The notes below the pieces were generated by a model. That model was not told where the DNA came from. It saw nothing but the letters and a program-made list of their open reading frames with translations, and made no database searches. Source: an uncultured Actinomycetes bacterium (GTDB taxonomy: Bacteria > Actinomycetota > UBA4738 > HRBIN12). From it: a stretch of DNA of 64,000 bases. The translations under genes and the position numbers were made by a program. Shown one piece after another: positions 3,022 to 56,445 of this stretch. How positions within the stretch are numbered: the first letter of the stretch is position 1; the number at the start of each line of letters is the position of its first letter. The stretch spans positions 256,001 through 320,000 of the forward strand of contig OY969934.1 in NCBI GenBank assembly GCA_963704725.1, in the 5' to 3' direction.

Positions 3022-3380
3022 CGGGGATCCCCTTCGTCGGGATCGGCGTCCCCGCGGCGAGGATCCGCGCGCAGGGCCATCCGCCTGCCGTCGGCGAGGA
3101 ACTTCTCCACCACGGCGAACCGACCGTTCTCCGAGATCAGCCGGTCGATCTCGGGGTTCTCGTGGTCGAGCGCGATGGCGAAGTGCGTCCCGACGGTGCG
3201 AACCTGCTCGTACTCGTTCCGCGTGAGCTCCAGCAGGGACGGACAGCCGGGGAAGCTGCATTCACAGACGTAGCTGTGTGCCGGATGGTCGTCGCCGAAC
3301 TCGTCGTTGGCTCGTTCGATCCACTCGTTGCGGTCGCGCGAGCGCAACTCATACGCCACCGCCTGCTCGCGCCAGTCCAT
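3018..3380 (-). CDS. hypothetical protein with CECxxxxC motif
   Basis: 120-aa ORF, GAAGGG SD-like site, stop overlaps the desaturase ATG (ATGA). Confidence 0.75.
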   Translation of the reverse strand: MDWREQAVAYELRSRDRNEWIERANDEFGDDHPAHSYVCECSFPGCPSLLELTRNEYEQVRTVGTHFAIALDHENPEIDRLISENGRFAVVEKFLADGRRMALRADPRRGDADPDEGDPR

Positions 3381-4876: not shown

Positions 4877-5920
4877 TCAGGCCGCCCCTGCCACAGCGGT
4901 CGGAGCCGGGCGGACCTGGTTGCGACCGTTCCGCTTCGCCGCATACAGGCGAGCGTCCGCATCTCGGAACACCGCGTCGTAGACGAAGGGCGCTCCGGGC
5001 GCGGAGGCAGCCACGCCGAAGCTCATCGTCACGCGGTGTCCTCCGAGGGGGCCGGCCGCGACCGCCGCGCGCAGGCGCTCTGCCACGAGCACGGACCCCT
5101 CGAGGTCGGCGCCCGGAAGCAGCACGAGGAACTCCTCTCCACCGAGGCGATAGGACAGGTCGAACGCTCGGAGCTGCTTGCGCATCTCGTAGGCGACGTC
5201 CTTGAGGACGGCGTCACCGACGGCGTGCCCGTACGTGTCGTTGATCCGCTTGAAGCGATCGAGGTCTCCCACGATCAACCCGATCGGCTGCGCAGTGATC
5301 CTCGACTGCTGCTCGAGCTCGGCCTGTCGACGCGCGAGCGCGGTCCGGTTGAGCATCCCGGTCAGCGAGTCGAGCACCGCTTCCGCTCGGTACTTGACCT
5401 CGGACCGCATCAGGACCATCTGGAACAGGGCCACGCACGCGATGAGGGCGACGGGCGCGATCAGCAGCGGGGGGTCGTCGAGCACCGCCTGGGCGTTCAC
5501 CCCGAAGGCGACGGCGGTGATCAGGGCGACCGAGATGCCCACTCCGAGCACGATGCCGCGCTCGGAGAACCGGGCACCGAGCGTCAGGACCGGAACCGCG
5601 AACCACGCCATCGTCGGCACCAGCGGCCCTCCGGAGATCGCGACGCTGATCGCCATGATCACCTGCGACGTCGTCCACGCGGCGAACAGGGCGTATTCAG
5701 GTCGCTTCGAGTGCTCGATCCTGGTCTCGGCCAGGCGGAACGCGATCGCCGCCAGAACCAGCGGCACGATCGTCCACCAGCCGAGCCACGGACCCGAGGC
5801 AAGGAGGGCGAGGCCGAGGACGCCGATCGAGGCTCGTCGGACGGGTTGGAGCAGGCGGTCCATCTCGAGCATGCGTTCGCGGTCCGCGTCCCGTGGGACC
5901 AGCCAGGATCCGTCGCCCAT
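4877..5920 (-). CDS. membrane-bound diguanylate cyclase (GGDEF)
   Basis: Several TM segments, then DSLTGMLNR, DLDRFKRINDTYGHAVGD, RLGGEEF. Confidence 0.95.
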   Translation of the reverse strand: MGDGSWLVPRDADRERMLEMDRLLQPVRRASIGVLGLALLASGPWLGWWTIVPLVLAAIAFRLAETRIEHSKRPEYALFAAWTTSQVIMAISVAISGGPLVPTMAWFAVPVLTLGARFSERGIVLGVGISVALITAVAFGVNAQAVLDDPPLLIAPVALIACVALFQMVLMRSEVKYRAEAVLDSLTGMLNRTALARRQAELEQQSRITAQPIGLIVGDLDRFKRINDTYGHAVGDAVLKDVAYEMRKQLRAFDLSYRLGGEEFLVLLPGADLEGSVLVAERLRAAVAAGPLGGHRVTMSFGVAASAPGAPFVYDAVFRDADARLYAAKRNGRNQVRPAPTAVAGAA

Positions 5921-18352: not shown

Positions 18353-19456
18353 TTGAGGTACCTCGACCGAACCGGGCTCGACGGGCTCCTGCGCGCGCTC
18401 GTCGACGCCGGCTACGACCTGATCGGCCCGACCGTCCGGGACGGCGCGATCGTGCTCGACCACCTCGACGGCGCCTCGGACCTGCCGGCCGGCGTCGGCG
18501 AGGAGCAGGCGCCCGGCAGGTACCGGCTCACGAGCCGCGACGACGACCGGATGTTCGGATGGGCCCACGGGCCCGATGCCGGCAAGCGTTTCCTGTTCCC
18601 CCCGCGAGAGCTGCTCGCGACGGTGGCGCGCTCGAACGGCTCGATGCAGGTCGAATCCCCGCCGGAGGACCCCAGGCCCTTCGCGTTCGTGGGGCTTCGC
18701 TCATGCGACCTGCACGCCATCGCCGTGCAGGATCGGGTCTTCATGGACCTCGACCCCGCCTACCGGCGACGCCGGGAGGGAGCGGTCTTCGTCGGCGTCA
18801 ACTGCGAGGAACCCGGGTCGACGTGCTTCTGCGTCTCGATGAACACGGGACCGCGGTGCACGGCCGGCTTCGACCTCGCGCTCACCGAGCTCGACGACGG
18901 CTTCGTCGTCGAGGTGGGCACCCCCCGCGGGGAGGAGCTGCTCGCCTCCGTCCCCACGCGCGAGACCTCGTCGGAGGAGTCGGCGGCGCCCGAACGGGTG
19001 GCGGCCGTCGCCTCGACCCGGATGGGACGTGAGCTCGAGACCTCCGACATGCCGAACCTGCTCTACCGCAACCGGACCCACCCGCGGTGGGACGACGTGG
19101 CGGCCCGGTGCCTGGCCTGCGGGAACTGCACGAACGTCTGCCCCACGTGCTTCTGCCACGACGTCGTCGACGGCGTGTCGCTCTCCGGCGACGTCGCCAC
19201 GAGGACCCGGGAATGGGCGACCTGCTTCAGCGCCGAGTACTCGTGGACGGCCGGCGAGGTCGTCCGTCACACGCACGTCGGGCGGTACCGGCAGTGGCTC
19301 ACGCACAAGTTCGCCTCCTGGATCGACCAGTACGGCACGAGCGGCTGCGTCGGTTGCGGGCGCTGCATCACCTGGTGCCCGGTCGGGATCGACGTGACCG
19401 AGGAGATCGCGGCGATCCGAGCCACCGACGGCGAGGTCAAGGCGGTGAGCGCATGA
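18353..19456 (+). CDS. group 3b [NiFe]-hydrogenase beta (Fe-S) subunit
   Basis: GLRSCDLHA, TCFCVSM, CLACGNCTNVCPTCFC, GCVGCGRCITWCPVGID; GGAGGT SD before TTG. Confidence 0.92.
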   Translation: MRYLDRTGLDGLLRALVDAGYDLIGPTVRDGAIVLDHLDGASDLPAGVGEEQAPGRYRLTSRDDDRMFGWAHGPDAGKRFLFPPRELLATVARSNGSMQVESPPEDPRPFAFVGLRSCDLHAIAVQDRVFMDLDPAYRRRREGAVFVGVNCEEPGSTCFCVSMNTGPRCTAGFDLALTELDDGFVVEVGTPRGEELLASVPTRETSSEESAAPERVAAVASTRMGRELETSDMPNLLYRNRTHPRWDDVAARCLACGNCTNVCPTCFCHDVVDGVSLSGDVATRTREWATCFSAEYSWTAGEVVRHTHVGRYRQWLTHKFASWIDQYGTSGCVGCGRCITWCPVGIDVTEEIAAIRATDGEVKAVSA

Positions 19457-47202: not shown

Positions 47203-48237
47203 ATGCGCGTTGCCGTCGTCGGAGCCACGGGCGCCGTCGGCCGGAACATGGTCCGTCTCCTGCAGGAGCGCGACTTCCCGGTCGACGAGCTGATCCCGCT
47301 CGCGTCGGAACGGACGGCGGGCACACGGCTGCCGTTCCGCGGCGAGGATCGCGAGGTCGGCGTGCTCTCGCTCGACGCGCTCCGAGGCGTCGACGTCGCG
47401 CTCAGCTCGTGCGGGTCTGCCGCGGCGAAGACGTGGGTGCCGGCCGCGGCGGAGGCGGGCACGATCTGCATCGACAACTCGAGCGCGTTCCGCATGGAGC
47501 CGTGGGCGGAGCTGGTCATCCCCGAGGTGAACCCCGAGGCGCTTTCGAGCGGCGCCAGAGTCTTCGCCGTGCCGAACTGCACGATCATCACCACGCTGAT
47601 GGCGGTCGCGCCGCTGCATCGTGCCGCCGGGGTGCGGTCGCTCATCGTGAGCTCGTACCAGTCGGTCTCCGGCGCCGGGCAGAAGGGCGTTCGGGAGCTC
47701 GCCGAGCAGATCGAGAAGCTCCACGGCATGGAGGAGGAGCTCGGCCACCCCGACCTCGACGCGCTCCCGGTCGGGGACGTGTTCGGCAAGACGATCGCCT
47801 ACAACGTCGTGGCCAAGATCGACGTCTTCGACGAGGCGACGGGGTTCACGTTCGAGGAGATCAAGATGCACCGCGAGGCCAAACGGATCCTCTCGCTGCC
47901 CGAGCTCGACATCACCGCCACCTGCGTCCGGGTCCCGGTGCCGGTCGGCCACGCCGTCAGCGTCCACGCCACGTTCGACCGCCCGATCTCAACCGCCGAG
48001 GCCCGCGAGGTGCTCGCCGAGGCGCCCGGCGTCCAGCTCCGCGACGACCCGGCGGACGGCGTCTACCCCACCCCCCTCGAGGCGGCGGGCCTCGACGACG
48101 TGCTCGTCGGCCGGATCCGGCAGCCCGAGGGCCACGACGACGCCCTGCTCCTGTTCGCCTGCGGCGACAACCTCCGCAAGGGCGCGGCGCTCAACGCTGT
48201 CCAGATCGCAGAAGAGCTCATCCGGTCCCGTCGCTGA
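47203..48237 (+). CDS. asd: aspartate-semialdehyde dehydrogenase
   Basis: VGATGAVG, IDNSSAFR, PNCT, YQSVSGAG, CVRVPV, DNLRKGAALNAVQIAE. Confidence 0.97.
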   Translation: MRVAVVGATGAVGRNMVRLLQERDFPVDELIPLASERTAGTRLPFRGEDREVGVLSLDALRGVDVALSSCGSAAAKTWVPAAAEAGTICIDNSSAFRMEPWAELVIPEVNPEALSSGARVFAVPNCTIITTLMAVAPLHRAAGVRSLIVSSYQSVSGAGQKGVRELAEQIEKLHGMEEELGHPDLDALPVGDVFGKTIAYNVVAKIDVFDEATGFTFEEIKMHREAKRILSLPELDITATCVRVPVPVGHAVSVHATFDRPISTAEAREVLAEAPGVQLRDDPADGVYPTPLEAAGLDDVLVGRIRQPEGHDDALLLFACGDNLRKGAALNAVQIAEELIRSRR

Positions 48238-48256
48238 GGCATCTCGCGCCCCGGCG
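48238..48256 (+). repeat. 19-bp boundary site, copy 1 (degenerate 5' part)
   Basis: GGCATCTCGCGCCCCGGCG directly after the asd stop. Confidence 0.55.
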
Positions 48257-48310
48257 AGTTGGGCCACGTTCGAGTCGCTTGGCCGCTCTCCGTCCGTCAG
48301 AATCGACGTT

Positions 48311-48778
48311 GTGAATGAGACGGGCACTCGCTTGCCCCTCGCCCGCGTTCCTGAGACCGCAGTCAGACTCGGCTTCCTGGCTCTTGCGCTTATCGCGCTC
48401 TGGGCTGGCATCGCTCGGTGGAACGTCTGGGCCGAGGCGGGTCTCGGAGGTCGAACATCAGTGGCCGACTGGGTCATCTGGCTCGCGGTCGTCGCCTTGG
48501 CCGGCTTCTTCTTCGGCCTTGCCGCGGTGCCGCCGAGCACCCTTCGCTATCGGATCGGCCCTCCGCTGCTCTTGGCGGCAATCCCGGTGATGCTCCTCGC
48601 CCACACCGTGGTCCTGTTTGGCGTCAGGTGGGAGGCCCTACCCGACTTCTTGGCCACCCCTCGCTTCTATATGGACTCTCCATTCCAGTTTGGCCTAGCG
48701 ACATGGGTGGGCGTCGCCTTCGTTTCGGGGCTCCACTCGCGCACCGGCCCCAATCAAGAGGATGGTCTGAGCACATAA
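48311..48778 (+). CDS. hypothetical 4-TM membrane protein (unit 1)
   Basis: Four hydrophobic segments; relaxed codon bias; CAGAAT 7 nt before GTG. Confidence 0.75.
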   Translation: MNETGTRLPLARVPETAVRLGFLALALIALWAGIARWNVWAEAGLGGRTSVADWVIWLAVVALAGFFFGLAAVPPSTLRYRIGPPLLLAAIPVMLLAHTVVLFGVRWEALPDFLATPRFYMDSPFQFGLATWVGVAFVSGLHSRTGPNQEDGLST

Positions 48779-48795
48779 GTCCACGCGCCCTGGCG
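48777..48795 (+). repeat. 19-bp boundary site, copy 2
   Basis: AAGTCCACGCGCCCTGGCG, overlapping the TAA stop. Confidence 0.75.
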
Positions 48796-49222
48796 CGCGA
48801 GGCACCCTTAGGCGGGGTCGCTGGCGCGCGGCGAAACACGCGCTCATCATGGCGTCTATGGACTGGCTTCCGCCAAGATCGCTGGCGGCCCGCTCGCAGT
48901 GGGTCAAAGCGCGGCCGTGGCTAGCTGCCTGCTACCTCGCAACCTTCTCGTCGATCTTCATGGCCTTCGTGTTCCCCCTGCTAGCCGACGGCCCCGCGAG
49001 CGTTCGATTCAAGGTCACCCTCGGCTTGGTGATGTGGCCGGTGACCGTGCCGCTGTTCCATGCTGGTCTCAAGCGCGGGTGGGGCGAACGGCCAGATGCC
49101 GAGACTAGCCCCCCTCCGACGGCTCGCCGGATGTGGAGTCGCGCCTCGGACCGGATGGGTCTGCCCAGCCTTTGGTTGACTCCTGACGTGTGAGGATGAC
49201 CCTCACCGGAAGGAGGCAGCAG

Positions 49223-49507
49223 ATGCCCCAGGCGTTCCCCCTTGAGTTCCGCCGTGACGTCGTCGCCGTGGCCCGGCGCAAAGAGGCTCCGATGAGCCAG
49301 ATCGCGAAGGACTTCGGGATCTCCGAGTCCTGTCTGCATCGCTGGGTGAAGCGCGCCGAGATCGAGGACGGCATGCGCGAGGGCCTGACGCTCGCCGAGG
49401 AGGCGGAGATCCGCGAGCTGCGAAAGCGCAACCGGCTGCTCGAGCAGGAGAACGAGGTGCTCCGCCGGGCCGCCGTCTACCTCGGGCAGGGCGTCAACCC
49501 AAAATGA
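49223..49507 (+). CDS. outer IS3 OrfA
   Basis: FPLEFRRDVV, HTH IAKDFGISESCLHRW; AGGAGG SD; CCCAAAA slippery-like site at the OrfA/B junction. Confidence 0.92.
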   Translation: MPQAFPLEFRRDVVAVARRKEAPMSQIAKDFGISESCLHRWVKRAEIEDGMREGLTLAEEAEIRELRKRNRLLEQENEVLRRAAVYLGQGVNPK

Positions 49508-50203
49508 TGTACCCGCTGGTCCGCGAGCTTGCCGCAGACGGGATCCCCGTCACGGTGACCTGCCGGGTGCTCGGCTTCTCGCCGCAGGCCTATCACAAGT
49601 GGAAGGCGAACCCGGTCAGCACCAGGGACTGGTCCGACGCCCACCTTGGGTTCAACCGGTCGATGCAACACCTCCCGCAAGATGAGCGATCGGCTCAGGG
49701 GAGGGTGGAGCGTGACGGATCGAAGACGGCCGCATGCACCGGCGAAGGTGCACAGCTGGCCGAAGATGAGGGACCTGCGTCGGGAGATGATCCAGCTCGC
49801 GAGGCAGGGCATCCTCCAGCGCGAGATCGCCAAGATGTTGGGCGTATCGCAGCAGCTGGTCAGCGTGGTCCTGTTGCCGAAGGGGGGCGTCTACCGGGTC
49901 GAGGACTGGCACCCCTCGGATGCACGGCTGTCCCTGGAGGACCGGATCGAGGTCGGCCTGGGGTGCCAGCGCGGAGACTCGCTTCGCGTGATCGCGCACC
50001 GGATCGGTCGAAGTCCCTCCACGGTTTCCCGCGAGGTGGCCGCGAACGGGGGTCGTGTTTGGTACCGGCCAATGAAGGCCCACCGGCGGGCTCACGCCCT
50101 GGCACGTAGGCCCAAGCCGACCAAGCTCTCTCGCCATCGTCGGTTGCTCTGAACCGCCCTGGGTTTGATGGAGACTCCGAACCTTGGAAACGGAGGAGGA
50201 TCC

Positions 50204-50536
50204 ATGGCCCAGCAGAAGCACCCGTCGTCCAGGCGGTACCCGCCCGAGGTGAGGGACCGAGCGGTCTCACTCGTCCTCACCACGATGCAGCAAAGCGGTG
50301 AGCGTCACGGCGTCGTCACGCGGATCGCCCGCAAGCTCGACATCGGCCCGGAGACGCTCCGCAACTGGGTCCGCCAGGCCGAGATCGACAACGGGACGCG
50401 ACCAGGCCTCAGCACCGACGAGCGTGCCCGGATCGCCGAGCTCGAGAAGGAGAACCGCGAGCTCCGCCGCGCCAACCAGATCCTGAAGGAGGCGAGCGTG
50501 TTTTTCGCCCAGGAGCTCGATCGGCCCCGGAGATGA
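50204..50536 (+). CDS. inner IS3 OrfA
   Basis: RYPPEVRDRAV, ETLRNWVRQ, ELRRANQILK..FFAQELDRP with TTTTTC shift-prone site. Confidence 0.93.
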   Translation: MAQQKHPSSRRYPPEVRDRAVSLVLTTMQQSGERHGVVTRIARKLDIGPETLRNWVRQAEIDNGTRPGLSTDERARIAELEKENRELRRANQILKEASVFFAQELDRPRR

Positions 50537-51420
50537 CCCGCTTCATCGAGACCAGGCGGGATCGTTTCGAGGTCGAGCTCCTGTGCCGGACCCTGGGGGC
50601 ATCGCCGTCGACCTACTACACCCGCAGAAGCCGTCCCCCGTCGGCGAGAGCGATCACCGACGCCTGGCTGCACGAGGAGATCGAACGGGTCTTCAAGGCC
50701 AACTACTCGGTCTACGGCGCCAGGAAGGTGTGGCACCAGCTGCACCGCGAAGGCATCGCGATCGGGCGCGACCGGGTGGCCCGCCTGATGCGCCAGGCTG
50801 GCCTGCACGGAGTCCGGCGAGGGAAGAAGACGTTCACCACCCGTCGCGACGAGAAGGCAGCCCGACCGCCGGATCTCGTGGAGCGGGACTTCACGGCAGC
50901 TCGGCCCAACGCGCTGTGGCTCGCGGACATCACCTACGTCCGTACCTGGTCCGGGTTCTGCTACGTGGCGTTCGTGCAGGACGTCTTCTCCCGCATGATC
51001 GTCGGCTGGTCGATCGCCACGCACCTTCGGACCTCACTCGCCACCGAGGCGCTCGAGATGGCGGTGTGGCGTCGAGGGGTCTCCGTCGAGGGTCTCGTTC
51101 ATCACTCCGACGCCGGAGGTCAATACGTATCGGTGGCCTACTCCGAGCGCCTGGCAGAGCACGGCATCGTCCCCTCGGTCGGCTCCGTGGGCGACTCCTT
51201 CGACAACGCCATGGCCGAGTCGGCGATCGGGCTCTACAAGACCGAGCTGATCCGCCGCCGTGGGCCCTGGCCGAGCCCCGATCAGGTCGAGATCGCCACG
51301 CTTGAGTACATCGACTGGTTCAACTTCCGAAGGCTGCACGGAGAGATCGGCCACGTCCCGCCGGCGGAGTTCGAGGAGGTGTTCTACGCTTCGGAGATCG
51401 AGGAGCGAATCCAAGCCTGA
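50533..51420 (+). CDS. inner IS3 OrfB DDE transposase
   Basis: VYGARKVW, WLADITY, HHSDAGGQY, DNAMAES, YKTE. Confidence 0.95.
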   Translation: MTRFIETRRDRFEVELLCRTLGASPSTYYTRRSRPPSARAITDAWLHEEIERVFKANYSVYGARKVWHQLHREGIAIGRDRVARLMRQAGLHGVRRGKKTFTTRRDEKAARPPDLVERDFTAARPNALWLADITYVRTWSGFCYVAFVQDVFSRMIVGWSIATHLRTSLATEALEMAVWRRGVSVEGLVHHSDAGGQYVSVAYSERLAEHGIVPSVGSVGDSFDNAMAESAIGLYKTELIRRRGPWPSPDQVEIATLEYIDWFNFRRLHGEIGHVPPAEFEEVFYASEIEERIQA

Positions 51421-52994
51421 AGGTCTCTACGGAACCCAGGGCGGTTCAGTCTGCGCACCGGCCGAGCCAAGCGGCTTCCGAGGGCCTGGACGGGCAACCG
51501 ACGGCGCATGATCCCAAACATGGTGATGATCTCCGAACGGCCGCCGGAGGTGGCCGACCGCGCCGTTCCCGGTCACTGGGAGGGTGACCTGTTGATGGGC
51601 CGGGACAACAAGACCGCGATCGGCACGTTGGTGGAACGCAGCACCCGGTTCACGATGCTGGTGAGGCTCCCGGTGGATCACTCCGCCCCGGCGGTGCGAG
51701 AGGCGATCGCTCGAGCGATCGCCTCGCTGCCCGAAGCGGTCCGGCGATCGCTCACGTGGGATCAGGGGCCGGAGATGGCCGAGCACGTGCGATTCAGCGT
51801 GGACACGGGGGTGCAGGTCTACTTCTGTGACCCGCACTCGCCCTGGCAGCGAGGGAGCAACGAGAACACCAACGGACTGCTGCGCCAGTACTTCCCGAAG
51901 GGCACCGACCTGCCCGTCGGCGACCCGAAGCGCCTTCGACAGGTCGCAGACTTGCTCAACGGCAGGCCCCGCAAGACACTGGGATGGAAGACACCGGCGG
52001 AGAAACTCGCGGAAGTTGTTGCGACGACCACTTGAATCCGCCCACCTGGTCGACGCCGCCCTGCAGATCCACGCCGATGATCCGGCCTTCGGCTACCGGT
52101 TCATCACCGACGAGCTCGTCGCCGAGCGCGGCATCACCGCCAGCGAGAACCGGGTGCACCGTCTGTGCAGCGCGCACGGCATCTTCTCGGTGCTCGCCCG
52201 CAAGAAGGGACGAAGGCCCAGGCCCGGAGAGCCGGTGCACGACGACCTGGTCCGCCGTGCGTTCGGTGCCCGCAGGCCGAACGAGCTGTGGTTCACCGAC
52301 ATCACCGAGCACCCGACGGCGGAGGGCAAGCTCTACCTCTGTGCGATCAAGGACGCCTTCTCCGGTCGCATCGTCGGCTACTCGATGGACCACCGGATGA
52401 AGGCTTCTCTGGCCGTGGCCGCGCTCCGAGGCGCGATCGGCCTGCGGAGCCCTGCCGGCACGCTGGTTCACTCGGACCGCGGCAGTCAGTTTCGCTCCGG
52501 GAAGTTCGTGCGTCTGCTGAGGAACCACGGCCTCATCGGGTCGATGGGTCGCACCGGGACCTGCGCCGACAACGCCGCCATGGAGTCGTTCTTCGCCCTG
52601 CTGCAAAGGAACGTCTTGGACCGACAACGCTGGCAGACCAGAGAGGAGCTCCGCCTGGCGATCGTCACCTGGATCGAGCGGACCTATCACCGCCGGCGAC
52701 GTCAGCGCGGCCTCGGTAGGCTCACCCCGATTGAGTTCGAGGCCGTGCACGAGGTCGCCTATGCGGCCTGAAAGCCGTCAACCCCGCGAGTCAACCAAAC
52801 CTGGGGCAGACCCGATCCTGGTCTTGTGGTTGTGGCTCGGTGCGGCTGGCACGATCGTGCTGACACTCGCACTCATAACGGGGTCGGACAGATCGTGGGC
52901 CACCGTGCTGGCGGTCCCGTGTGCCGTCTGGTTCGCCACGACAGCGTGGGCGGAGCGCAGACGTCGTCGAACCGGTCTCTGACTCCGTTTGAAG

Positions 52995-53013
52995 AAGTCC
53001 ATGCGCCCCGGCG
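52995..53013 (+). repeat. 19-bp boundary site, copy 3
   Basis: AAGTCCATGCGCCCCGGCG. Confidence 0.75.
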
Positions 53014-53061
53014 TCCGCAGGCCCGCCCGGATCGGCTATTCACGGAGGACCTGTTCGATCC

Positions 53062-53527
53062 TCAGCCGGTGGCCTCGTCGAGGCCGGGTGTCGGGTAGGG
53101 GCTCGCCTCCTCGGCGGTCGGTGGCCGCATGCACAGCGTCTCGATGTCGACGGTCCAGGTTCCGTCGGCGAGCTGGCCTAGCGCGATCCGCGCCTCGACC
53201 CTGTCACCGATGTACAGCTTGCCGGTCTCAGGCTCGAAACGGTTCGGCCCGGCTCGCGAGGCGAGAGCCGCCGCGTACTCTGCCGCCGCTCGCGGCCCGT
53301 CGGAGGCCAAGAAGGCAGGGAGAGCGGCGAGGGTCTCCTCGGGTGACCGTATCCACCCCCTTCCGCTGGTTCGAAGATCGAGTGCCCGACCTGCGCCTGA
53401 GGACATCCCCACTCGTCGTAGGGGCCACCAGCCGAACCGACCGCCATCGCAAGAGCAGCAGCAGCGGTGAGCCCGGAGACAAACGCCCAACTCGGATGGC
53501 TTTGGATGGCTTCGATCCCACGTGCAT
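53062..53527 (-). pseudogene. putative secreted protein (unit 3) with two apparent one-base deletions
   Basis: MHVGSKPSKAIRVG|AFVSGLTAAAALAMAVGS...EGGGY|SPEETLAAL...DEATG assembled across three frames; CAGAAT 7 nt before ATG. Confidence 0.55.
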
Positions 53528-53574
53528 CAGACTCATTCTGCGTCGTCCAAGAGCCCTGATCGAACCCGGCCCTA

Positions 53575-53593
53575 GAGTCCCCGCGCCCCGGCG
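53575..53593 (+). repeat. 19-bp boundary site, copy 4
   Basis: GAGTCCCCGCGCCCCGGCG. Confidence 0.75.
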
Positions 53594-53669
53594 CCTGCCG
53601 CCTGCGCATCGCGGCGACGTGCGTGGACGGCCGATTCTCAGCTACCAGCGCAGGGGCGTCGCCGGCGAG

Positions 53670-54575
53670 CTAACTCCTGATCTGGGAGACCGCTCGGCGG
53701 ACGAACGCCTCGTACCTCGCGTGCCGCTCTTCCTCGTCCGAGCCGACCGGCGGATCGTCCGAGAGCCACTCCATCGCATCGAGGAGATCCCAGTACGGGT
53801 CGTAGCCGGCAACTCCGATGCTCTCGGACGCGGCGAGGAATCGGTCGGCGACCGCGAGCGAGAAGTCCCACGTGAGGTTCAGGCGCATGTGGGCGAGGTC
53901 GATCCCCACAGGACCGATCGAGCCGGTCGTCCAGTCGACGACGCCCGAGAGATCCTCACCCATCCACAGCGTGTTTCCCTGGTGGTAGTCGCGGTGGATG
54001 AAGCGGGGCGAGTGGTCGGGCCGACGGCCTCCCAGGATCTCGAGGGCTCGTTCCCACGGCCCGGGATCTTTCGACCAGCGGGGGGGTCGAAGGTCGCCGA
54101 CCGCCTTCCCGTCGGACTCGAAGTACGGCTGGTAGCGGTGAAGCTGCTCGCTCGTTCGTGCCGCGTGGATCGGCGGAAGCACCTCGGCGAGGCGTCCGAT
54201 GTACCCATCGAGGTGCGTCGGCCTGTCCGGCATGGGTTCTCCCGGCAGCCATGAGACGAGCAGTGTCGGGACGTCGCACTCGAGCGGGCCGATGTCGGCC
54301 CCGAGCAGCTGCGGCACCGGCAGGTCGACCGGCCGAAGGACCTCGAGAGCCTGGATCTCGCATGCAGGGTCGTACCAGGGGTCGGAGCCGAGTCGATCCG
54401 CATCCACGTAGCGCCGGAGCACCGTGTCGGTCCGAGCTCCGTCCGCCGTCTCGGCGACGAGGTGGTGGTGCGCGTGCGATGCCTTGGGCATTGGCTCGAT
54501 CCGCACGATCCTGGTCCCAGCCCCAAGGGCTGATGCGGCCCACGCGAGCGTGGTCGGTGGAAGCCGTGTCGTCAT
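53670..54575 (-). CDS. aminoglycoside phosphotransferase / choline kinase family protein
   Basis: VLRR, PVPQLL, HRDYHQGN (Brenner motif), VVDW. Confidence 0.88.
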   Translation of the reverse strand: MTTRLPPTTLAWAASALGAGTRIVRIEPMPKASHAHHHLVAETADGARTDTVLRRYVDADRLGSDPWYDPACEIQALEVLRPVDLPVPQLLGADIGPLECDVPTLLVSWLPGEPMPDRPTHLDGYIGRLAEVLPPIHAARTSEQLHRYQPYFESDGKAVGDLRPPRWSKDPGPWERALEILGGRRPDHSPRFIHRDYHQGNTLWMGEDLSGVVDWTTGSIGPVGIDLAHMRLNLTWDFSLAVADRFLAASESIGVAGYDPYWDLLDAMEWLSDDPPVGSDEEERHARYEAFVRRAVSQIRS

Positions 54576-54766
54576 CGGGGCTTCGATGCCCGGAGCCCGA
54601 ACTCGAGCGGGATCCGCCCGCCGCCGACGACCAGAGCGGCTCGTCCGTCCGAGGCGACCGTGAACTTGCTGCCAGCGATGTCGTAGAAGACGCCGTCGTC
54701 ACCGTGGAGAGCCGCCCGCTCCTCCCACCAGGCCAGGTTCCGATCGATCGTCGGCCCCCTATTCGT
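54572..54766 (-). pseudogene. probable remnant of a class I SAM methyltransferase gene
   Basis: Open frame TIDRNLAWWEERAALHGDDGVFYDI...GRIPLEFGLRASKPR*, no canonical start, stop overlaps the APH ATG. Confidence 0.5.
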
Positions 54767-55244
54767 TGTAGCCGGTCGCGCCCCAGGTCTCGTCGAGGAG
54801 CTTCACGAACCACGTGCCGTTGTCGGTCCAGCCCTCCCGGCGGTAGAAGCGGTGGGTCGCCTCCCGCCAGGCGGAGGTCTCGAGCGACATCCGGAAGCAG
54901 CCGCGCTTGCGAGCGAGCGTCTCGGCCTCCGCCAGCAGCGAGCTCCCGATGCCCTTGCCGCGGGCCGACTCCGTCACGACGAGGTCGTTCACCCACGCCT
55001 GGGGCCTGGGGTGGCCGAGGCGCTGGCGGAACTCCATGTCGAGGAACCCGATCACGTCGCCCGCCGGGACCTCGGCGACCAGGGTCCGGGACTCGCGCAG
55101 CGCGAGATGGCCGCCGAACCGGATCACGAACGACGGGTTCGAGGCCGCCGAGGGCGACACGTCGCGCCCGAGCTCGACGAGGAGCGCGGCCACCTGCGGC
55201 CAGTCGTCCACGGTGGCGCGCCGGATGACGTGTGCGAGCCCCAC
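54759..55244 (-). CDS. GNAT acetyltransferase
   Basis: IRRATVDD, LVVTESARGKGIG, HRFYRREG. Confidence 0.9.
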   Translation of the reverse strand: MGLAHVIRRATVDDWPQVAALLVELGRDVSPSAASNPSFVIRFGGHLALRESRTLVAEVPAGDVIGFLDMEFRQRLGHPRPQAWVNDLVVTESARGKGIGSSLLAEAETLARKRGCFRMSLETSAWREATHRFYRREGWTDNGTWFVKLLDETWGATGYNE

Positions 55245-55251
55245 GGCCCGG

Positions 55252-56445
55252 TCAGAACCAGTCGTACATGAAGGGCGCCGGCCCGGCGAACAGCCGCGCC
55301 AGGACGGGCACGGCGGGGTCGTCGCCGTCGATGAGGCCGAGCCGCACGGCGTCGAAGGGCGAAAGGAACCCCGTGTACATCGCCGACAGGATGCCCACGG
55401 GCATCGGCCGGACGCGCGCACCGGTCGCCGACGACACCTCGACCTTGCCGCCCTCCGCCGAGATCCTCCACGGGCCCCGGTTGTCGGGGAACATCCCGTC
55501 CTCGACCGCGAGGATCGCCTCGCCGCTCACCGGTGGGTAGCCCCGGCCCTCGAGCGCGGCGGCGACGTCCAGCAGCCGGAGCATCCACCGGAAGGTCCAC
55601 GACGGCTTCACGCGCTGCTCCTCGACGAGCAGGGCGAGCGGATCCGCCAGCGGTCCCGGGAACGTCACCGCCTGCCCGAGCCCTCGGAAGCCGCGGAAGT
55701 AGCCGAGCAGGGAGGCGTAGCCCTCGATCGTGGAGGCGACGAAGTGCTTGCACGAGAGGCGGAACGCCACGTCGAGGTCGCCCTCGTCCTTCTCGTACAG
55801 GAACGACGCGTAGCCCTCGACCGTCCCCTCCTCGCCCCGCGCCACGACCGCGCGCTGCGGCTCGTCGGGTTTGCGACGACCCATGATCCGCTCCGGCCAC
55901 CACCGGGGGTCGTCGCTGTCGATCGGGCCGTTGTCCTGCTCGGTGGCGCGCCGGTAGCAGGCCCGGACGGCCTCGAGGTCGGGGTCCGGCTCGTACTCCT
56001 CGACCGGCAGGGGCCCGCCGCCCTTGGGCAGGTCCTCCAGACCGACGCAGTGCTCGGTGTACGTTCCCGCGAGCTCGTACCCGAGGCCTCGATACGGGCG
56101 CAGGATGGCCGGGAACAGCGCCGTGAGCGGCACGCCCCGCTCCCTGGCCTCTCGCATGAGGCGTCCGACGGCGAGCGTCGCCAGGCCGGCGCCCCGATGC
56201 TCGGGGAGCGTGCCGACCCCCCAGATCCCGCACATCTCGACGTCGCGGCCGCCGAAGCGCTGCCGGAAGTCGCGGTCGGCGGCCACGCCGAGGACCCGGT
56301 CGCCCTCGAACGCGCACCGGAACCGCTCGAGCGGCAGCTTGGGACCGCTGTGCTCGAGGAAGCCGTGCTCCAGGTTCAGCGAGACGCGAAGGACGTTCGC
56401 CACCTGGTCGCGGTGGTCCTCGGCGGGCGTACGGATCTCGGTCAT
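55252..56445 (-). CDS. Eis-family acetyltransferase (GNAT-GNAT-SCP)
   Basis: VGTLPEHRGAG, ALFP..YRGLGYE, WMLRLLDVAAAL..RGY, C-terminal DWF. Confidence 0.9.
   Translation of the reverse strand: MTEIRTPAEDHRDQVANVLRVSLNLEHGFLEHSGPKLPLERFRCAFEGDRVLGVAADRDFRQRFGGRDVEMCGIWGVGTLPEHRGAGLATLAVGRLMREARERGVPLTALFPAILRPYRGLGYELAGTYTEHCVGLEDLPKGGGPLPVEEYEPDPDLEAVRACYRRATEQDNGPIDSDDPRWWPERIMGRRKPDEPQRAVVARGEEGTVEGYASFLYEKDEGDLDVAFRLSCKHFVASTIEGYASLLGYFRGFRGLGQAVTFPGPLADPLALLVEEQRVKPSWTFRWMLRLLDVAAALEGRGYPPVSGEAILAVEDGMFPDNRGPWRISAEGGKVEVSSATGARVRPMPVGILSAMYTGFLSPFDAVRLGLIDGDDPAVPVLARLFAGPAPFMYDWF

What the first reader, a model, noticed from the sequence alone, without database searches (positions are those of the whole stretch)
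48238..53593. Integron-like array: three single-gene units bounded by four copies of a 19-bp site
Seen: direct repeats GGCATCTCGCGCCCCGGCG (48238, degenerate), AAGTCCACGCGCCCTGGCG (48777), AAGTCCATGCGCCCCGGCG (52995) and GAGTCCCCGCGCCCCGGCG (53575). With the IS stack removed the spacings are 539, 558 and 580 bp. Each interval holds exactly one unrelated membrane or secreted gene with weaker GC3 bias (two plus, one minus), between asd and an APH-ending operon. The core is a dyad CGCC-(CC/CT)-GGCG, and one stop codon overlaps the site. The sites lack the paired RYYYAAC/GTTRRRY ends and long stem of attC, and no recombinase gene is in the window. Inference: sequential site-specific capture of gene cassettes by a trans-acting recombinase; a 2-bp core would fit serine or IS110-type enzymes. 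This may be an undescribed cassette system.
Basis: partly seen in the sequence, partly recalled or inferred. Interest (0 to 1): 0.85.

Follow-up and report, generated by a model that had tools for sequence, protein, structure and literature searches.

The report
Integron-like cassette array, non-attC sites
A soil actinobacterium keeps single accessory genes as swappable cassettes separated by a short palindromic DNA site unlike integron sites, and the same layout recurs in related soil genomes with no recombinase gene nearby, so it looks like an undescribed gene-capture system.

Summary
The window holds three co-oriented copies of WAA-n-GTCCACGCGCC-CC-GGCG (48777, 52995, 53575). The "degenerate" copy at 48238 is a second site class, a near-palindrome GGCCTCACGCGCC-CC-GGCGCGTGAGGCC that usually heads arrays.

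The genome has only one other cluster, at C1:719-721 kb, so this is not a dispersed REP. The same site bounds arrays of up to 11 cassettes in related Actinomycetota MAGs and in 70 metagenome stretches.

Identical cassettes sit in different arrays and positions. Homology blocks end at the sites. Site variants map the crossover to the invariant CCGGCG at the dyad centre. In 7 of 12 asd loci fetched from related genomes, asd abuts the GNAT gene directly.

No tyrosine or serine recombinase is linked to the arrays, apart from one unrelated integrase in one genome. IntI, attC structure, Xer/dif likeness and REP behaviour were tested and not met.

Most likely this is site-specific cassette capture by an unlinked recombinase. 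The site architecture fits a serine recombinase, but the enzyme is not identified. I found no published description. Earlier notes of this scan report similar recombinase-less arrays in Gaiellaceae on other DNA; I could not check whether they use the same site.

The parts
47209..48237 (+). asd (aspartate-semialdehyde dehydrogenase), the conserved left flank. Its TGA stop abuts the first site.
   Evidence: Pfam Semialdhyde_dh/dhC. Orthologues at 77-87% identity in 12 loci of related genomes.
48238..48265 (+). Class-B (head) site GGCATCTCGCGCC-CC-GGCGAGTTGGGCC. The left arm is an inverted copy of the right-arm type. It marks the start of the array.
   Evidence: One of only 3 loci in the genome within 5 mismatches of the 28-nt class-B palindrome, against 0 for the reversed control. 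Class-B sites precede every class-A site in 23 of the 28 loci that hold both.
48311..48778 (+). Cassette 1 gene, 155 aa, with several hydrophobic segments. Its stop codon TAA is the WAA of the next site.
   Evidence: ORF list and translation. No Pfam family. A homologue at 74% aa identity lies between two sites in metagenome locus L083.
48775..48803 (+). Class-A site 1: TAAGTCCACGCGCC-CT-GGCGCGCGAGGC. It has a CT centre instead of CC.
   Evidence: nhmmer E=0.00056 with a profile built from sites of other genomes.
48849..52982 (+). Cassette 2 gene (membrane-like), split by the IS stack. The 5' part runs from 48849 to about 49160, the 3' part from about 52810 to 52982.
   Evidence: ORFs, translation, no Pfam family.
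49157..52813 (+). Nested IS stack: an outer IS3-family element, inside it an IS with HTH_38 and rve ORFs, inside that a second IS3-family element at 50149-51449. It is a later insertion and not part of the cassette system.
   Evidence: Inverted repeats I3 and I1. HTH_Tnp_1, HTH_38 and rve domains. IS copies elsewhere in the genome.
52991..53022 (+). Class-A site 2: GAAGAAGTCCATGCGCC-CC-GGCGTCCGCAGGCC.
   Evidence: nhmmer E=0.0045.
53062..53490 (-). Cassette 3 ORF on the opposite strand, 142 aa. The start is uncertain; an alternative ORF is 53178-53609.
   Evidence: No Pfam family.
53573..53602 (+). Class-A-like site 3: TAGAGTCCCCGCGCC-CC-GGCGCCTGCCGCC. It is weaker (GTCCCC, TAG).
Evidence: It is in register and on the same strand as the others.
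53670..54575 (-). APH-family phosphotransferase gene. It is part of the segment specific to this genome and is probably a reverse-oriented cassette or the founding cargo.
   Evidence: Pfam APH. Absent from the 12 related asd loci. APH-family genes also lie at or near the distal end of the arrays in L047/L048 and L133. In L047 a further site-like sequence follows it, by my reading.
54759..55421 (-). GNAT acetyltransferase, the conserved right flank. In 7 of the 12 related loci it lies directly behind asd.
   Evidence: Pfam. tblastn synteny.

Best explanation
This is an array of mobile single-gene cassettes assembled by site-specific recombination at a short double-stranded DNA site. It works like an integron, but its site is different and its recombinase is not linked to the array.

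Anatomy of the site:
- An invariant core GCGCC-CC-GGCGC.
- A right arm, GGCGC-R-n-G-n-GGCC, that travels with the 5' end of the next cassette.
- A left arm that travels with the 3' end of the preceding cassette. The left arm comes in two kinds. Class A is WAA-n-GTCCAC. Class B is GGCCTCAC, the inverted copy of the right arm.

Class B usually sits at the head of an array, behind a core gene. In this window that gene is asd.

Inferred cycle. Recombination between two directly repeated sites releases a circle that carries one site. That circle can re-enter at any site, preferentially at the head site.

Shown here: the site family, its restriction to arrays, cassette exchange between arrays and species, and a crossover window of about 6 bp at the dyad centre.

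Inferred, not shown: the circular intermediate, a preference for the head site, and the enzyme. Dyad symmetry running up to a 2-bp asymmetric centre, with arms of about 13 bp, is the architecture of serine-recombinase crossover sites. I therefore favour a serine recombinase supplied in trans, possibly from a transient mobile element.
For: 1. Restriction to arrays. GTCC..GCGCCCYGGCG occurs 5 times in the 3.45-Mb genome. Three copies are here and two are at C1:719923 and 720831, all on the + strand. A profile from other genomes finds only these loci at E<0.01.

2. Recurrence. The exact 17-mer gives 25 hits in 20 of 294 genomes of the order, against 5 hits for the reversed control. There are 11 stretches in genome contigs and 70 in metagenome contigs, and 0 in viral contigs. 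Arrays reach 11 copies (L047, L135). In the 88 loci kept, 185 class-A and 30 class-B sites lie on the array strand, against 2 class-A-type matches on the other strand.

3. Cassette mobility.
- G000 719110-719576 is 98.3% identical over 467 bp to G009 (L043 8892-9358), while asd of the two genomes is 87% identical at protein level. It is the first cassette in one array and the fourth in the other.
- G000 719920-720364 is 89.7% identical to L104 and L117, with homology starting 3 nt before the site.
- G032 and G203 share the right flank at 98.5% from 6 nt before the last site, and differ upstream of it.
- Window cassette 1 recurs between two sites in L083.

4. Break points. Of 94 informative ends of homology blocks, 28 lie within 25 nt of a site centre in both partners and 42 in at least one. 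The random expectation is 3.2% per sequence.

5. Crossover mapping. In 20 unique site pairs that share only the upstream cassette, mismatches stay at 0-2 through position 15 and rise from position 16. In 14 unique pairs that share only the downstream cassette, mismatches occur at positions 0, 1, 2, 5, 8 and 10 and are zero at 11-16.

6. Insertion. In 7 of 12 asd loci fetched from related genomes, asd abuts GNAT directly. None of the 12 has APH or the 13-mer ACGCGCCCCGGCG.

7. Cargo. Cassettes carry GNAT, methyltransferases, BrkB, SnoaL, Imm27, DinB_2 and small membrane proteins. GC3 is lower than in the flanks.
Against: - No enzyme was found. Among ORFs of at least 120 aa in the 88 loci, phmmer with 3 tyrosine and 4 serine recombinase queries hit only one integrase, in G009. 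That integrase has no close relative in four other array genomes.
- G032 holds an 11-site array and is 93% complete. G203 is 96% complete. Both have 0 PF00239 matches and only 2-3 PF00589 matches.
- PF00239 is found in 8 of the 20 site-positive genomes, against 76 of 294 overall, and in 3 of the 6 genomes with clustered sites. That is no association.
- No circular junction or empty site was observed.
- The right boundary of the segment specific to this genome, next to GNAT, has no recognisable site.
- 52 of the 94 block ends are not near a recognised site.
- Window site 3 and the head site score at noise level in the profile.
- The TAA frequency in the logo is inflated, because the collection scans required TTA next to one site per locus.
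Confidence: 0.7

Rival explanations
1. The repeat is a REP-like or terminator-like hairpin element that spread into accessory regions. Cassette shuffling is then ordinary homologous recombination, for example after transformation, between these ~30-bp identical stretches, with no dedicated recombinase.
For: - No recombinase is linked to any array.
- The site lies just after stop codons and contains a GC-rich dyad.
- Class-B sites are near-perfect 13-bp-arm palindromes that could act as hairpins behind core genes.
Against: - The site is not dispersed. It has 5 copies in two clusters in 3.45 Mb, and there is no Y1/RAYT transposase.
- Copies are strictly on one strand within arrays.
- Crossovers fall in a window of about 6 bp, rather than anywhere along the ~30 conserved bases.
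- The predicted hairpins are no more stable than shuffles, with z from -1.6 to +0.96.
- The partner of the invariant A at position 4 would be T at position 19, which is T in only 38 of 154 site contexts.
Confidence: 0.12
2. The sites are dif-like, and the host XerC/XerD recombinases move the cassettes. This would resemble pdif modules or IMEX elements.
For: - XerD and an XerC-like protein are the only tyrosine recombinases in G000, and the only shared ones in G032 and G203.
- The reverse complement of the site reads TGGAC-n-TTA(T). The family's single-copy dif is AACGCC...AA-(T/C)G(T/G)ACG-TTATG..AAGT, and the central region of G015 dif is TGGACG.
Against: - Outside these 8-9 bases the arms are unlike dif. 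The best conserved part of the site, CGCGCCCCGGCG, has no counterpart in dif.
- The mapped crossover, positions 11-16, lies 6 or more nt away from the dif-like GTCCA. Variants at positions 5, 8 and 10 stay with the upstream cassette.
- The dif consensus used to recognise the G000 site came from my recall and from the position of the GC-skew maximum.
Confidence: 0.06
3. This is a classical integron remnant: a CALIN with unusually short attC sites, served by an IntI encoded elsewhere or since lost.
For: - Array layout, cassette size (median 681 bp), one ORF per unit and the types of cargo are those of integron arrays.
- The left arm often reads (R)YYTAAC, like the R'' box, by my reading.
Against: - No IntI. 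The two G000 tyrosine recombinases score 125-139 bits on the integron-integrase model, whose cut-off is 265.
- The site has about 30 conserved bases and no partner box. I saw no GTTRRRY downstream in the sequences.
- There is no stable hairpin and no arm-to-arm pairing beyond about 6 bp.
- The crossover lies in the middle of the site, not at its 3' end.
- Two surveys report no complete integron in Actinobacteria (passages read in PMC4889954 and PMC9024848).
Confidence: 0.04

Closest known systems
Sedentary chromosomal integrons and CALINs (IntI, attI, attC cassette arrays)
   Same: - Co-oriented array of mostly single-gene, apparently promoterless cassettes.
- A conserved site after each gene, which often contains the stop codon.
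- Cassettes shared and reordered between genomes.
- A distinct site at the head of the array, analogous to attI.
- Accessory cargo of the same kinds.
- Arrays without an integrase, as in CALINs.
   Different: - No IntI.
- The site has about 30 conserved bases and is conserved in sequence, not in structure. It has no R''/R' boxes and no long imperfect hairpin.
- The crossover is at the dyad centre, so each site is half from one cassette and half from the next.
- The host phylum is one in which complete integrons have not been found.
Crossover sites of serine recombinases (hix, gix, res site I; attB/attP of large serine recombinases) and cassette accretion by large serine recombinases (SCC-type islands)
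   Same: - Arms of 12-13 bp in inverted repeat up to an asymmetric 2-bp centre (CC), about 28 bp in all.
- The crossover maps to the centre.
- One window site has a CT centre, which in such systems would isolate it from CC sites.

The architecture of the known sites is recalled, not taken from a call.
   Different: - No serine recombinase gene lies next to any array.
- None was detected at all in two array-bearing MAGs.
- The cassettes are single small genes, not multi-kb elements that carry their own recombinase.
pdif modules and IMEX elements moved by XerC/XerD
   Same: - Modules without a recombinase of their own, relying on a host enzyme.
- A short stretch of the site resembles the dif central region plus the start of the XerD arm.
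   Different: - The arms are unlike dif.
- Sites are in direct rather than alternating orientation.
- The crossover lies outside the dif-like stretch.
REP/BIME elements with RAYT transposases
   Same: Short GC-rich palindromes placed after stop codons.
   Different: - They are not dispersed.
- There is no RAYT.
- They are strictly confined to arrays and bound units that move.

Membership tests
Integron (complete) | An IntI-type tyrosine integrase next to the array | tested here: not met
   PF00589 gives 2 matches in G000, both far from the arrays. They are named XerD and XerC-like, and score 138.7 and 125.5 bits on the integron-integrase model against a cut-off of 265. In the 88 array loci, one unrelated integrase was found.
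Integron / CALIN | attC sites: R''-L''...L'-R' boxes and an imperfect hairpin of about 57-141 nt, conserved in structure | tested here: not met
   Conservation spans about 30 nt. Folds are no better than shuffles. Position 19 pairs with the invariant A4 in only 38 of 154 contexts. IntegronFinder's covariance model could not be run.
Integron / CALIN | Co-oriented cassettes that are exchanged as units at the sites | tested here: met
Serine-recombinase site | Dyad symmetry up to a central 2-bp asymmetric crossover dinucleotide | tested here: met
   Logo and class-B palindrome. Crossover window at positions 11-16.
Serine-recombinase system (SCC-like or invertase-like) | A cognate serine recombinase gene present and linked or co-occurring | tested here: not met
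   None in the 88 loci. 0 PF00239 matches in G032, G203 and G098. Present in 8 of 20 site-positive genomes against 76 of 294 overall.
Xer/dif-type modules | An 11-6-11 site whose arms resemble the host dif, with the crossover in the central region | tested here: not met
   dif of 8 genomes of the family compared with the site. The crossover maps elsewhere.
REP/BIME | Many dispersed intergenic copies, with an RAYT (Y1) transposase | tested here: not met
   5 copies in 2 clusters. PF01797 gives 0 matches.
IS110-type (bridge-RNA) recombination | A DEDD transposase with a bridge RNA matching the site | not tested
   One PF01548 match in G000, at 2.69 Mb. No search for a bridge RNA or for co-occurrence was made.

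The most novel reading that the evidence does not exclude
Soil Actinomycetota of the Gaiellales kind carry a gene-capture system that parallels the integron but evolved independently. Single-gene cassettes recombine at a ~28-30-bp double-stranded dyad site with a 2-bp crossover. Arrays are headed by a palindromic 'attI-like' site, which in many arrays is preceded by a fossil fragment of the pilus ATPase gene cpaF. The system is served by a recombinase that is never linked to the array. That enzyme would be either a host-encoded protein of a family not yet connected with such reactions, or a recombinase delivered transiently. The system would fill the gap left by the absence of integrons in this phylum.
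Probability: 0.4. Interest if true: 0.9.

Novelty: new variant of a known kind. Interest (0 to 1): 0.8.

Why it matters
Integrons are the textbook device by which bacteria stockpile and shuffle single genes, and surveys find essentially none in Actinobacteria. A functionally equivalent system with a different site, and apparently a different enzyme, would show that cassette-based gene capture evolved more than once. It is common enough in soil metagenomes to be hit 70 times with one exact 20-22-nt pattern.

It would open a large pool of unannotated cassette genes in abundant, mostly uncultured soil bacteria. It would also point to a recombinase with a compact, well-defined 28-30-bp target. The mapped crossover window and the natural CC versus CT centres make the mechanism directly testable.

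Tried and rejected
- Linked recombinase. ORF clustering of 88 loci gave no recurrent recombinase; the largest cluster, by my reading, is repeat-rich RTX-like proteins, which no call tested. phmmer with 7 recombinase queries found only the G009 integrase. That integrase has no close relative in four other array genomes, and no further site lies beyond it.
- Serine-recombinase elements of G000. Four of the six are Replic_Relax plus large serine recombinase modules with a GCGCC-CT-GGCGCG palindrome upstream. The limit of homology between two copies looks nothing like the cassette site, so I dropped this as evidence.
- Structured RNA. There are no Rfam matches in 13 loci. RNAalifold on 8 array heads gave no covariation: -13.6 kcal/mol with a covariation term of +0.41.
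- APH as a conserved anchor. APH-family genes lie near the end of three arrays. The G000 and G032 proteins share no tblastn similarity, and most arrays have none.
- Stand-alone perfect palindrome at G000 602069. It lies inside high-GC, coding-looking sequence of what I read as a Tad-like pilus locus, with no cassettes. I treat it as chance.
- Empty site for the second G000 array. No close orthologue of the flanking luciferase-like monooxygenase was found in the genus; the best was 57-68% identity.
- Array extension. There are no sites in the next 20 kb of G032:C24 or G203:C8.
- Sequencing runs. One freshwater metagenome run holds 0.04 of the sampled words. I did not lay it, so there is no evidence either way.
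- Papers. There is no full-text hit for the site sequence or its reverse complement. No description was found in three word searches. Supplementary files were not consulted.


Full report
**The observation**

Within the window alone this is only modestly unusual: 3 matches against 0.37 expected, with 1 of 100 shuffles reaching 3.

The middle interval holds a three-level IS stack between inverted repeats at 49157-49182 and 52788-52813.

The TAA stop of ORF 48311-48778 is part of the next site. Cassette ORFs have GC3 of 0.58-0.79, against 0.94 for asd and 0.905 for GNAT. The window has no tyrosine or serine recombinase gene.

**Not a dispersed repeat**

The window lies in a 3.45-Mb single-contig genome of 71% G+C.
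- GTCC..GCGCCCYGGCG occurs 5 times. Three copies are here and two are at C1:719923 and 720831, all on the + strand. The bare core GCGCCCYGGCG occurs 78 times.
- At up to 2 mismatches to an 18-mer there are 9 hits, against 1 for the reversed control. At 3 or 4 mismatches, signal and control are alike: 37 against 30, and 341 against 291.
- A profile built from 150 sites of other genomes finds only 719918, 720826, 304775 and 308991 at E<0.01. Window sites 53573 and 48245 score at E=12.

The second locus is another array. Small low-GC ORFs follow a luciferase-like monooxygenase gene. One of them is an Imm27 immunity protein, and a Cupin_2-domain ORF follows further on.

**The same site in other genomes**

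- In 294 genomes of the order, the exact 17-mer GTCCAYGCGCCCYGGCG gives 25 hits in 20 genomes, against 5 hits for the reversed control. G034, one of the 20, is unpublished.
- A scan of species-representative genomes with the site plus TTA gave 11 stretches. Seven are labelled Actinomycetota bacterium, one Gaiellales, and three carry other bin labels.
- The same pattern gave 70 metagenome stretches and no viral contig.
- Many stretches hold several copies on one strand. L047 (G032:C24) has 11, L135 has 11, L133 has 8 and L085 has 5.
- In the 88 loci I kept, the array strand carries 185 class-A and 30 class-B sites, and the other strand carries 2 class-A-type matches. I had dropped 14 loci first: chance hits inside coding sequence, mostly of other families, three uncertain single hits, and duplicates of loci already held. 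The median of 104 unique inter-site intervals is 681 bp.
- Cassette genes include GNAT acetyltransferases, SAM methyltransferases, BrkB, SnoaL-like, DinB_2, Imm27, repeat-rich (RTX-like by my reading, no call tested it) and small membrane proteins.

**Anatomy of the site**

From 154 unique contexts, the conserved span is W-A-A-n-GTCCACGCGCCCCGGCG-C-R-n-G-n-G-G-C-C, about 30 nt. The frequency of TAA is inflated, because the collection scans required it beside one site per locus.

A second class became clear when I searched for the inverted copy of the right arm. GGCCTCACGCGCC-CC-GGCGCGTGAGGCC, usually preceded by TGAyGGn, occurs on the array strand in about 30 places.
- In G000, only three loci lie within 5 mismatches of this 28-mer, against 0 for the reversed control. 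They are window 48238, C1:719101 (the head of the second array) and a chance copy inside coding-looking sequence at 602069.
- Class-B sites precede every class-A site in 23 loci and follow one in 5.

**Cassettes move, and they break at the site**

- G000 719110-719576 is 98.3% identical to G009 L043 8892-9358. The asd proteins of the two genomes are 87% identical. The cassette is first in one array and fourth in the other, and the homology starts and ends inside the core.
- A second G000 cassette (719920-720364) is 89.7% identical to metagenome loci L104 and L117, with homology starting 3 nt before the site.
- G032 and G203 share their right flank at 98.5% from 6 nt before the last site, and differ upstream of it.
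- Window cassette 1 has a relative at 74% aa identity between two sites in L083. The DNA alignment starts at the head site.
- Of 94 informative ends of homology blocks, 28 are within 25 nt of a site centre in both partners and 42 in at least one, against 3.2% for random positions. The other 52 are not near a recognised site.

**Where the crossover lies**

Positions are counted from the G of GTCCAC.
- In 20 unique site pairs that share only the upstream cassette, mismatches are 0-2 through position 15 and rise from position 16.
- In 14 unique pairs that share only the downstream cassette, mismatches occur at positions 0, 1, 2, 5, 8 and 10 and are absent at 11-16.

The left arm therefore belongs to the cassette before the site and the right arm to the cassette after it. 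The exchange happens within the invariant CCGGCG at the dyad centre. A window this narrow argues for site-specific rather than homologous exchange.

**The asd locus in related genomes**

- In 7 of 12 asd loci fetched from related genomes, the convergent GNAT gene follows asd directly.
- One locus goes straight to the Eis-like gene. Three have a different downstream gene, HIT-like by my reading and not tested. One has something else.
- None has the APH gene or the 13-mer ACGCGCCCCGGCG.

So about 6.5 kb is specific to this genome: three cassettes, the IS stack and APH. Its right boundary at GNAT has no recognisable site, and I cannot explain that.

**Which enzyme**

- G000 has two tyrosine recombinases, XerD and XerC-like. 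Both score far below the integron-integrase cut-off. It also has six large serine recombinases, one IS110 transposase and no Y1 transposase.
- G032 and G203 have no PF00239 match and only 2-3 PF00589 matches.
- PF00239 is present in 76 of 294 genomes of the order, in 8 of the 20 site-positive ones, and in 3 of the 6 with clustered sites. These tallies include 14 unpublished genomes.
- In the 88 loci, the only recombinase found is a 348-aa integrase beside the G009 array. It has no close relative in four other array genomes.

The enzyme is therefore unlinked and unidentified.

The site itself has 13-bp inverted arms running up to an asymmetric CC. That is the layout I recall for serine-recombinase crossover sites, and it does not resemble spacer-type tyrosine sites.

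A hairpin, attC-like mode is not supported. Folds are no better than shuffles, and T at position 19, which would pair with the invariant A4, is present in only 38 of 154 contexts.

Xer is disfavoured. The family's dif is single-copy, lies near the skew maximum in G000, and reads AACGCCGAGAATGTACGTTATGGAAAGT there. It shares only TGGAC-n-TTA(T) with the reverse complement of the site, and the crossover maps elsewhere.

**An unexpected feature of array heads**

Upstream of about 14 of the 25 class-B sites I listed there is a conserved 60-110-nt stretch. That count is my reading by eye. The stretch aligns with codons of about 200-250 of the pilus ATPase gene cpaF (VYVERKGRIERV...). The intact G000 copy of cpaF is at C1:598444-600045.

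The second G000 array keeps a decayed 54-bp remnant of it. The window array has none. The stretch shows no RNA covariation and no Rfam match. I do not know whether it is a fossil of an ancestral location or a working part of the platform.

**What is known**

Two IntegronFinder surveys report no complete integron in Actinobacteria (passages read in PMC4889954 and PMC9024848). The site sequence has no full-text hit, and three word searches gave no description of such arrays. Supplementary files were not seen.

Earlier notes of this scan describe recombinase-less cassette arrays with non-attC repeats in Gaiellaceae, and one array ending at a large serine recombinase (e1-5139545, e1-3948842, e1-3959007, e1-4009229). 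A look-up by sequence found no overlap with my loci. I cannot say whether those arrays use the same site.

**Verdict**

The array is real. It is one member of a widespread family of integron-like cassette arrays that use a new site, with an unknown recombinase acting in trans.

Noticed in passing
Loci L087:4382-4441, L129 (oriented) 2366-2446, L039 (reverse strand) ~5473, L123 ~3141-3270; G000 C1:598444-600045: Arrays contain short fragments of the pilus ATPase gene cpaF. Three 5' fragments all break at the same point, CA(C/T)CTGAT|, and L123 holds the matching 3' side. The intact gene in G000 reads through this point. This suggests an element that once inserted at a fixed position in cpaF.
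   Followed up: partly
window 49157-52813: Three-level nested IS stack inside cassette 2: an IS3-family element, interrupted by an IS with HTH_38 and rve ORFs, itself interrupted by another IS3-family element at 50149-51449. Copies of the outer IS lie at G000 387119, 862776 and 2383975.
   Followed up: partly
G000 C1:995861-999445, 2379305-2382693, 2594951-2598150, 1919902-1923274: Four small modules, each a Replic_Relax protein gene followed by a large serine recombinase gene. Each has a GCGCC-CT-GGCGCG palindrome just upstream of the first gene. They are probably integrated mini-replicons. Their ends are unlike the cassette site.
   Followed up: partly
G000 C1:1991507-1991534: Candidate chromosome dimer resolution site (dif) near the GC-skew maximum at 1.998 Mb. 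It is single-copy and found in 8 of 41 related genomes at up to 3 mismatches. G015 has TGGACG as its central region.
   Followed up: partly
G000 C1:3079480-3080480: Several long homopolymer runs of T, G and A within 1 kb. This is probably an assembly artefact or a low-complexity junction.
   Followed up: no
L048 (G203:C8) original coordinates ~18590-18650 and ~4975-5035: The first ~45 bp after the last site, which is the start of the APH unit, is duplicated behind a second site 13.6 kb away. The cause could be a partial cassette duplication or an imprecise event.
   Followed up: no
L043:9501-10547 (-), G009:C18: A 348-aa tyrosine recombinase gene ends about 160 bp after the last site of the G009 array. 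An IS3-family element sits at the other end of that array.
   Followed up: partly
G000 C1:602069-602096: A perfect 13-bp-arm palindrome of the class-B type lies inside high-GC, coding-looking sequence of what I read as a Tad-like pilus locus, about 3 kb from cpaF. There are no cassettes next to it.
   Followed up: partly
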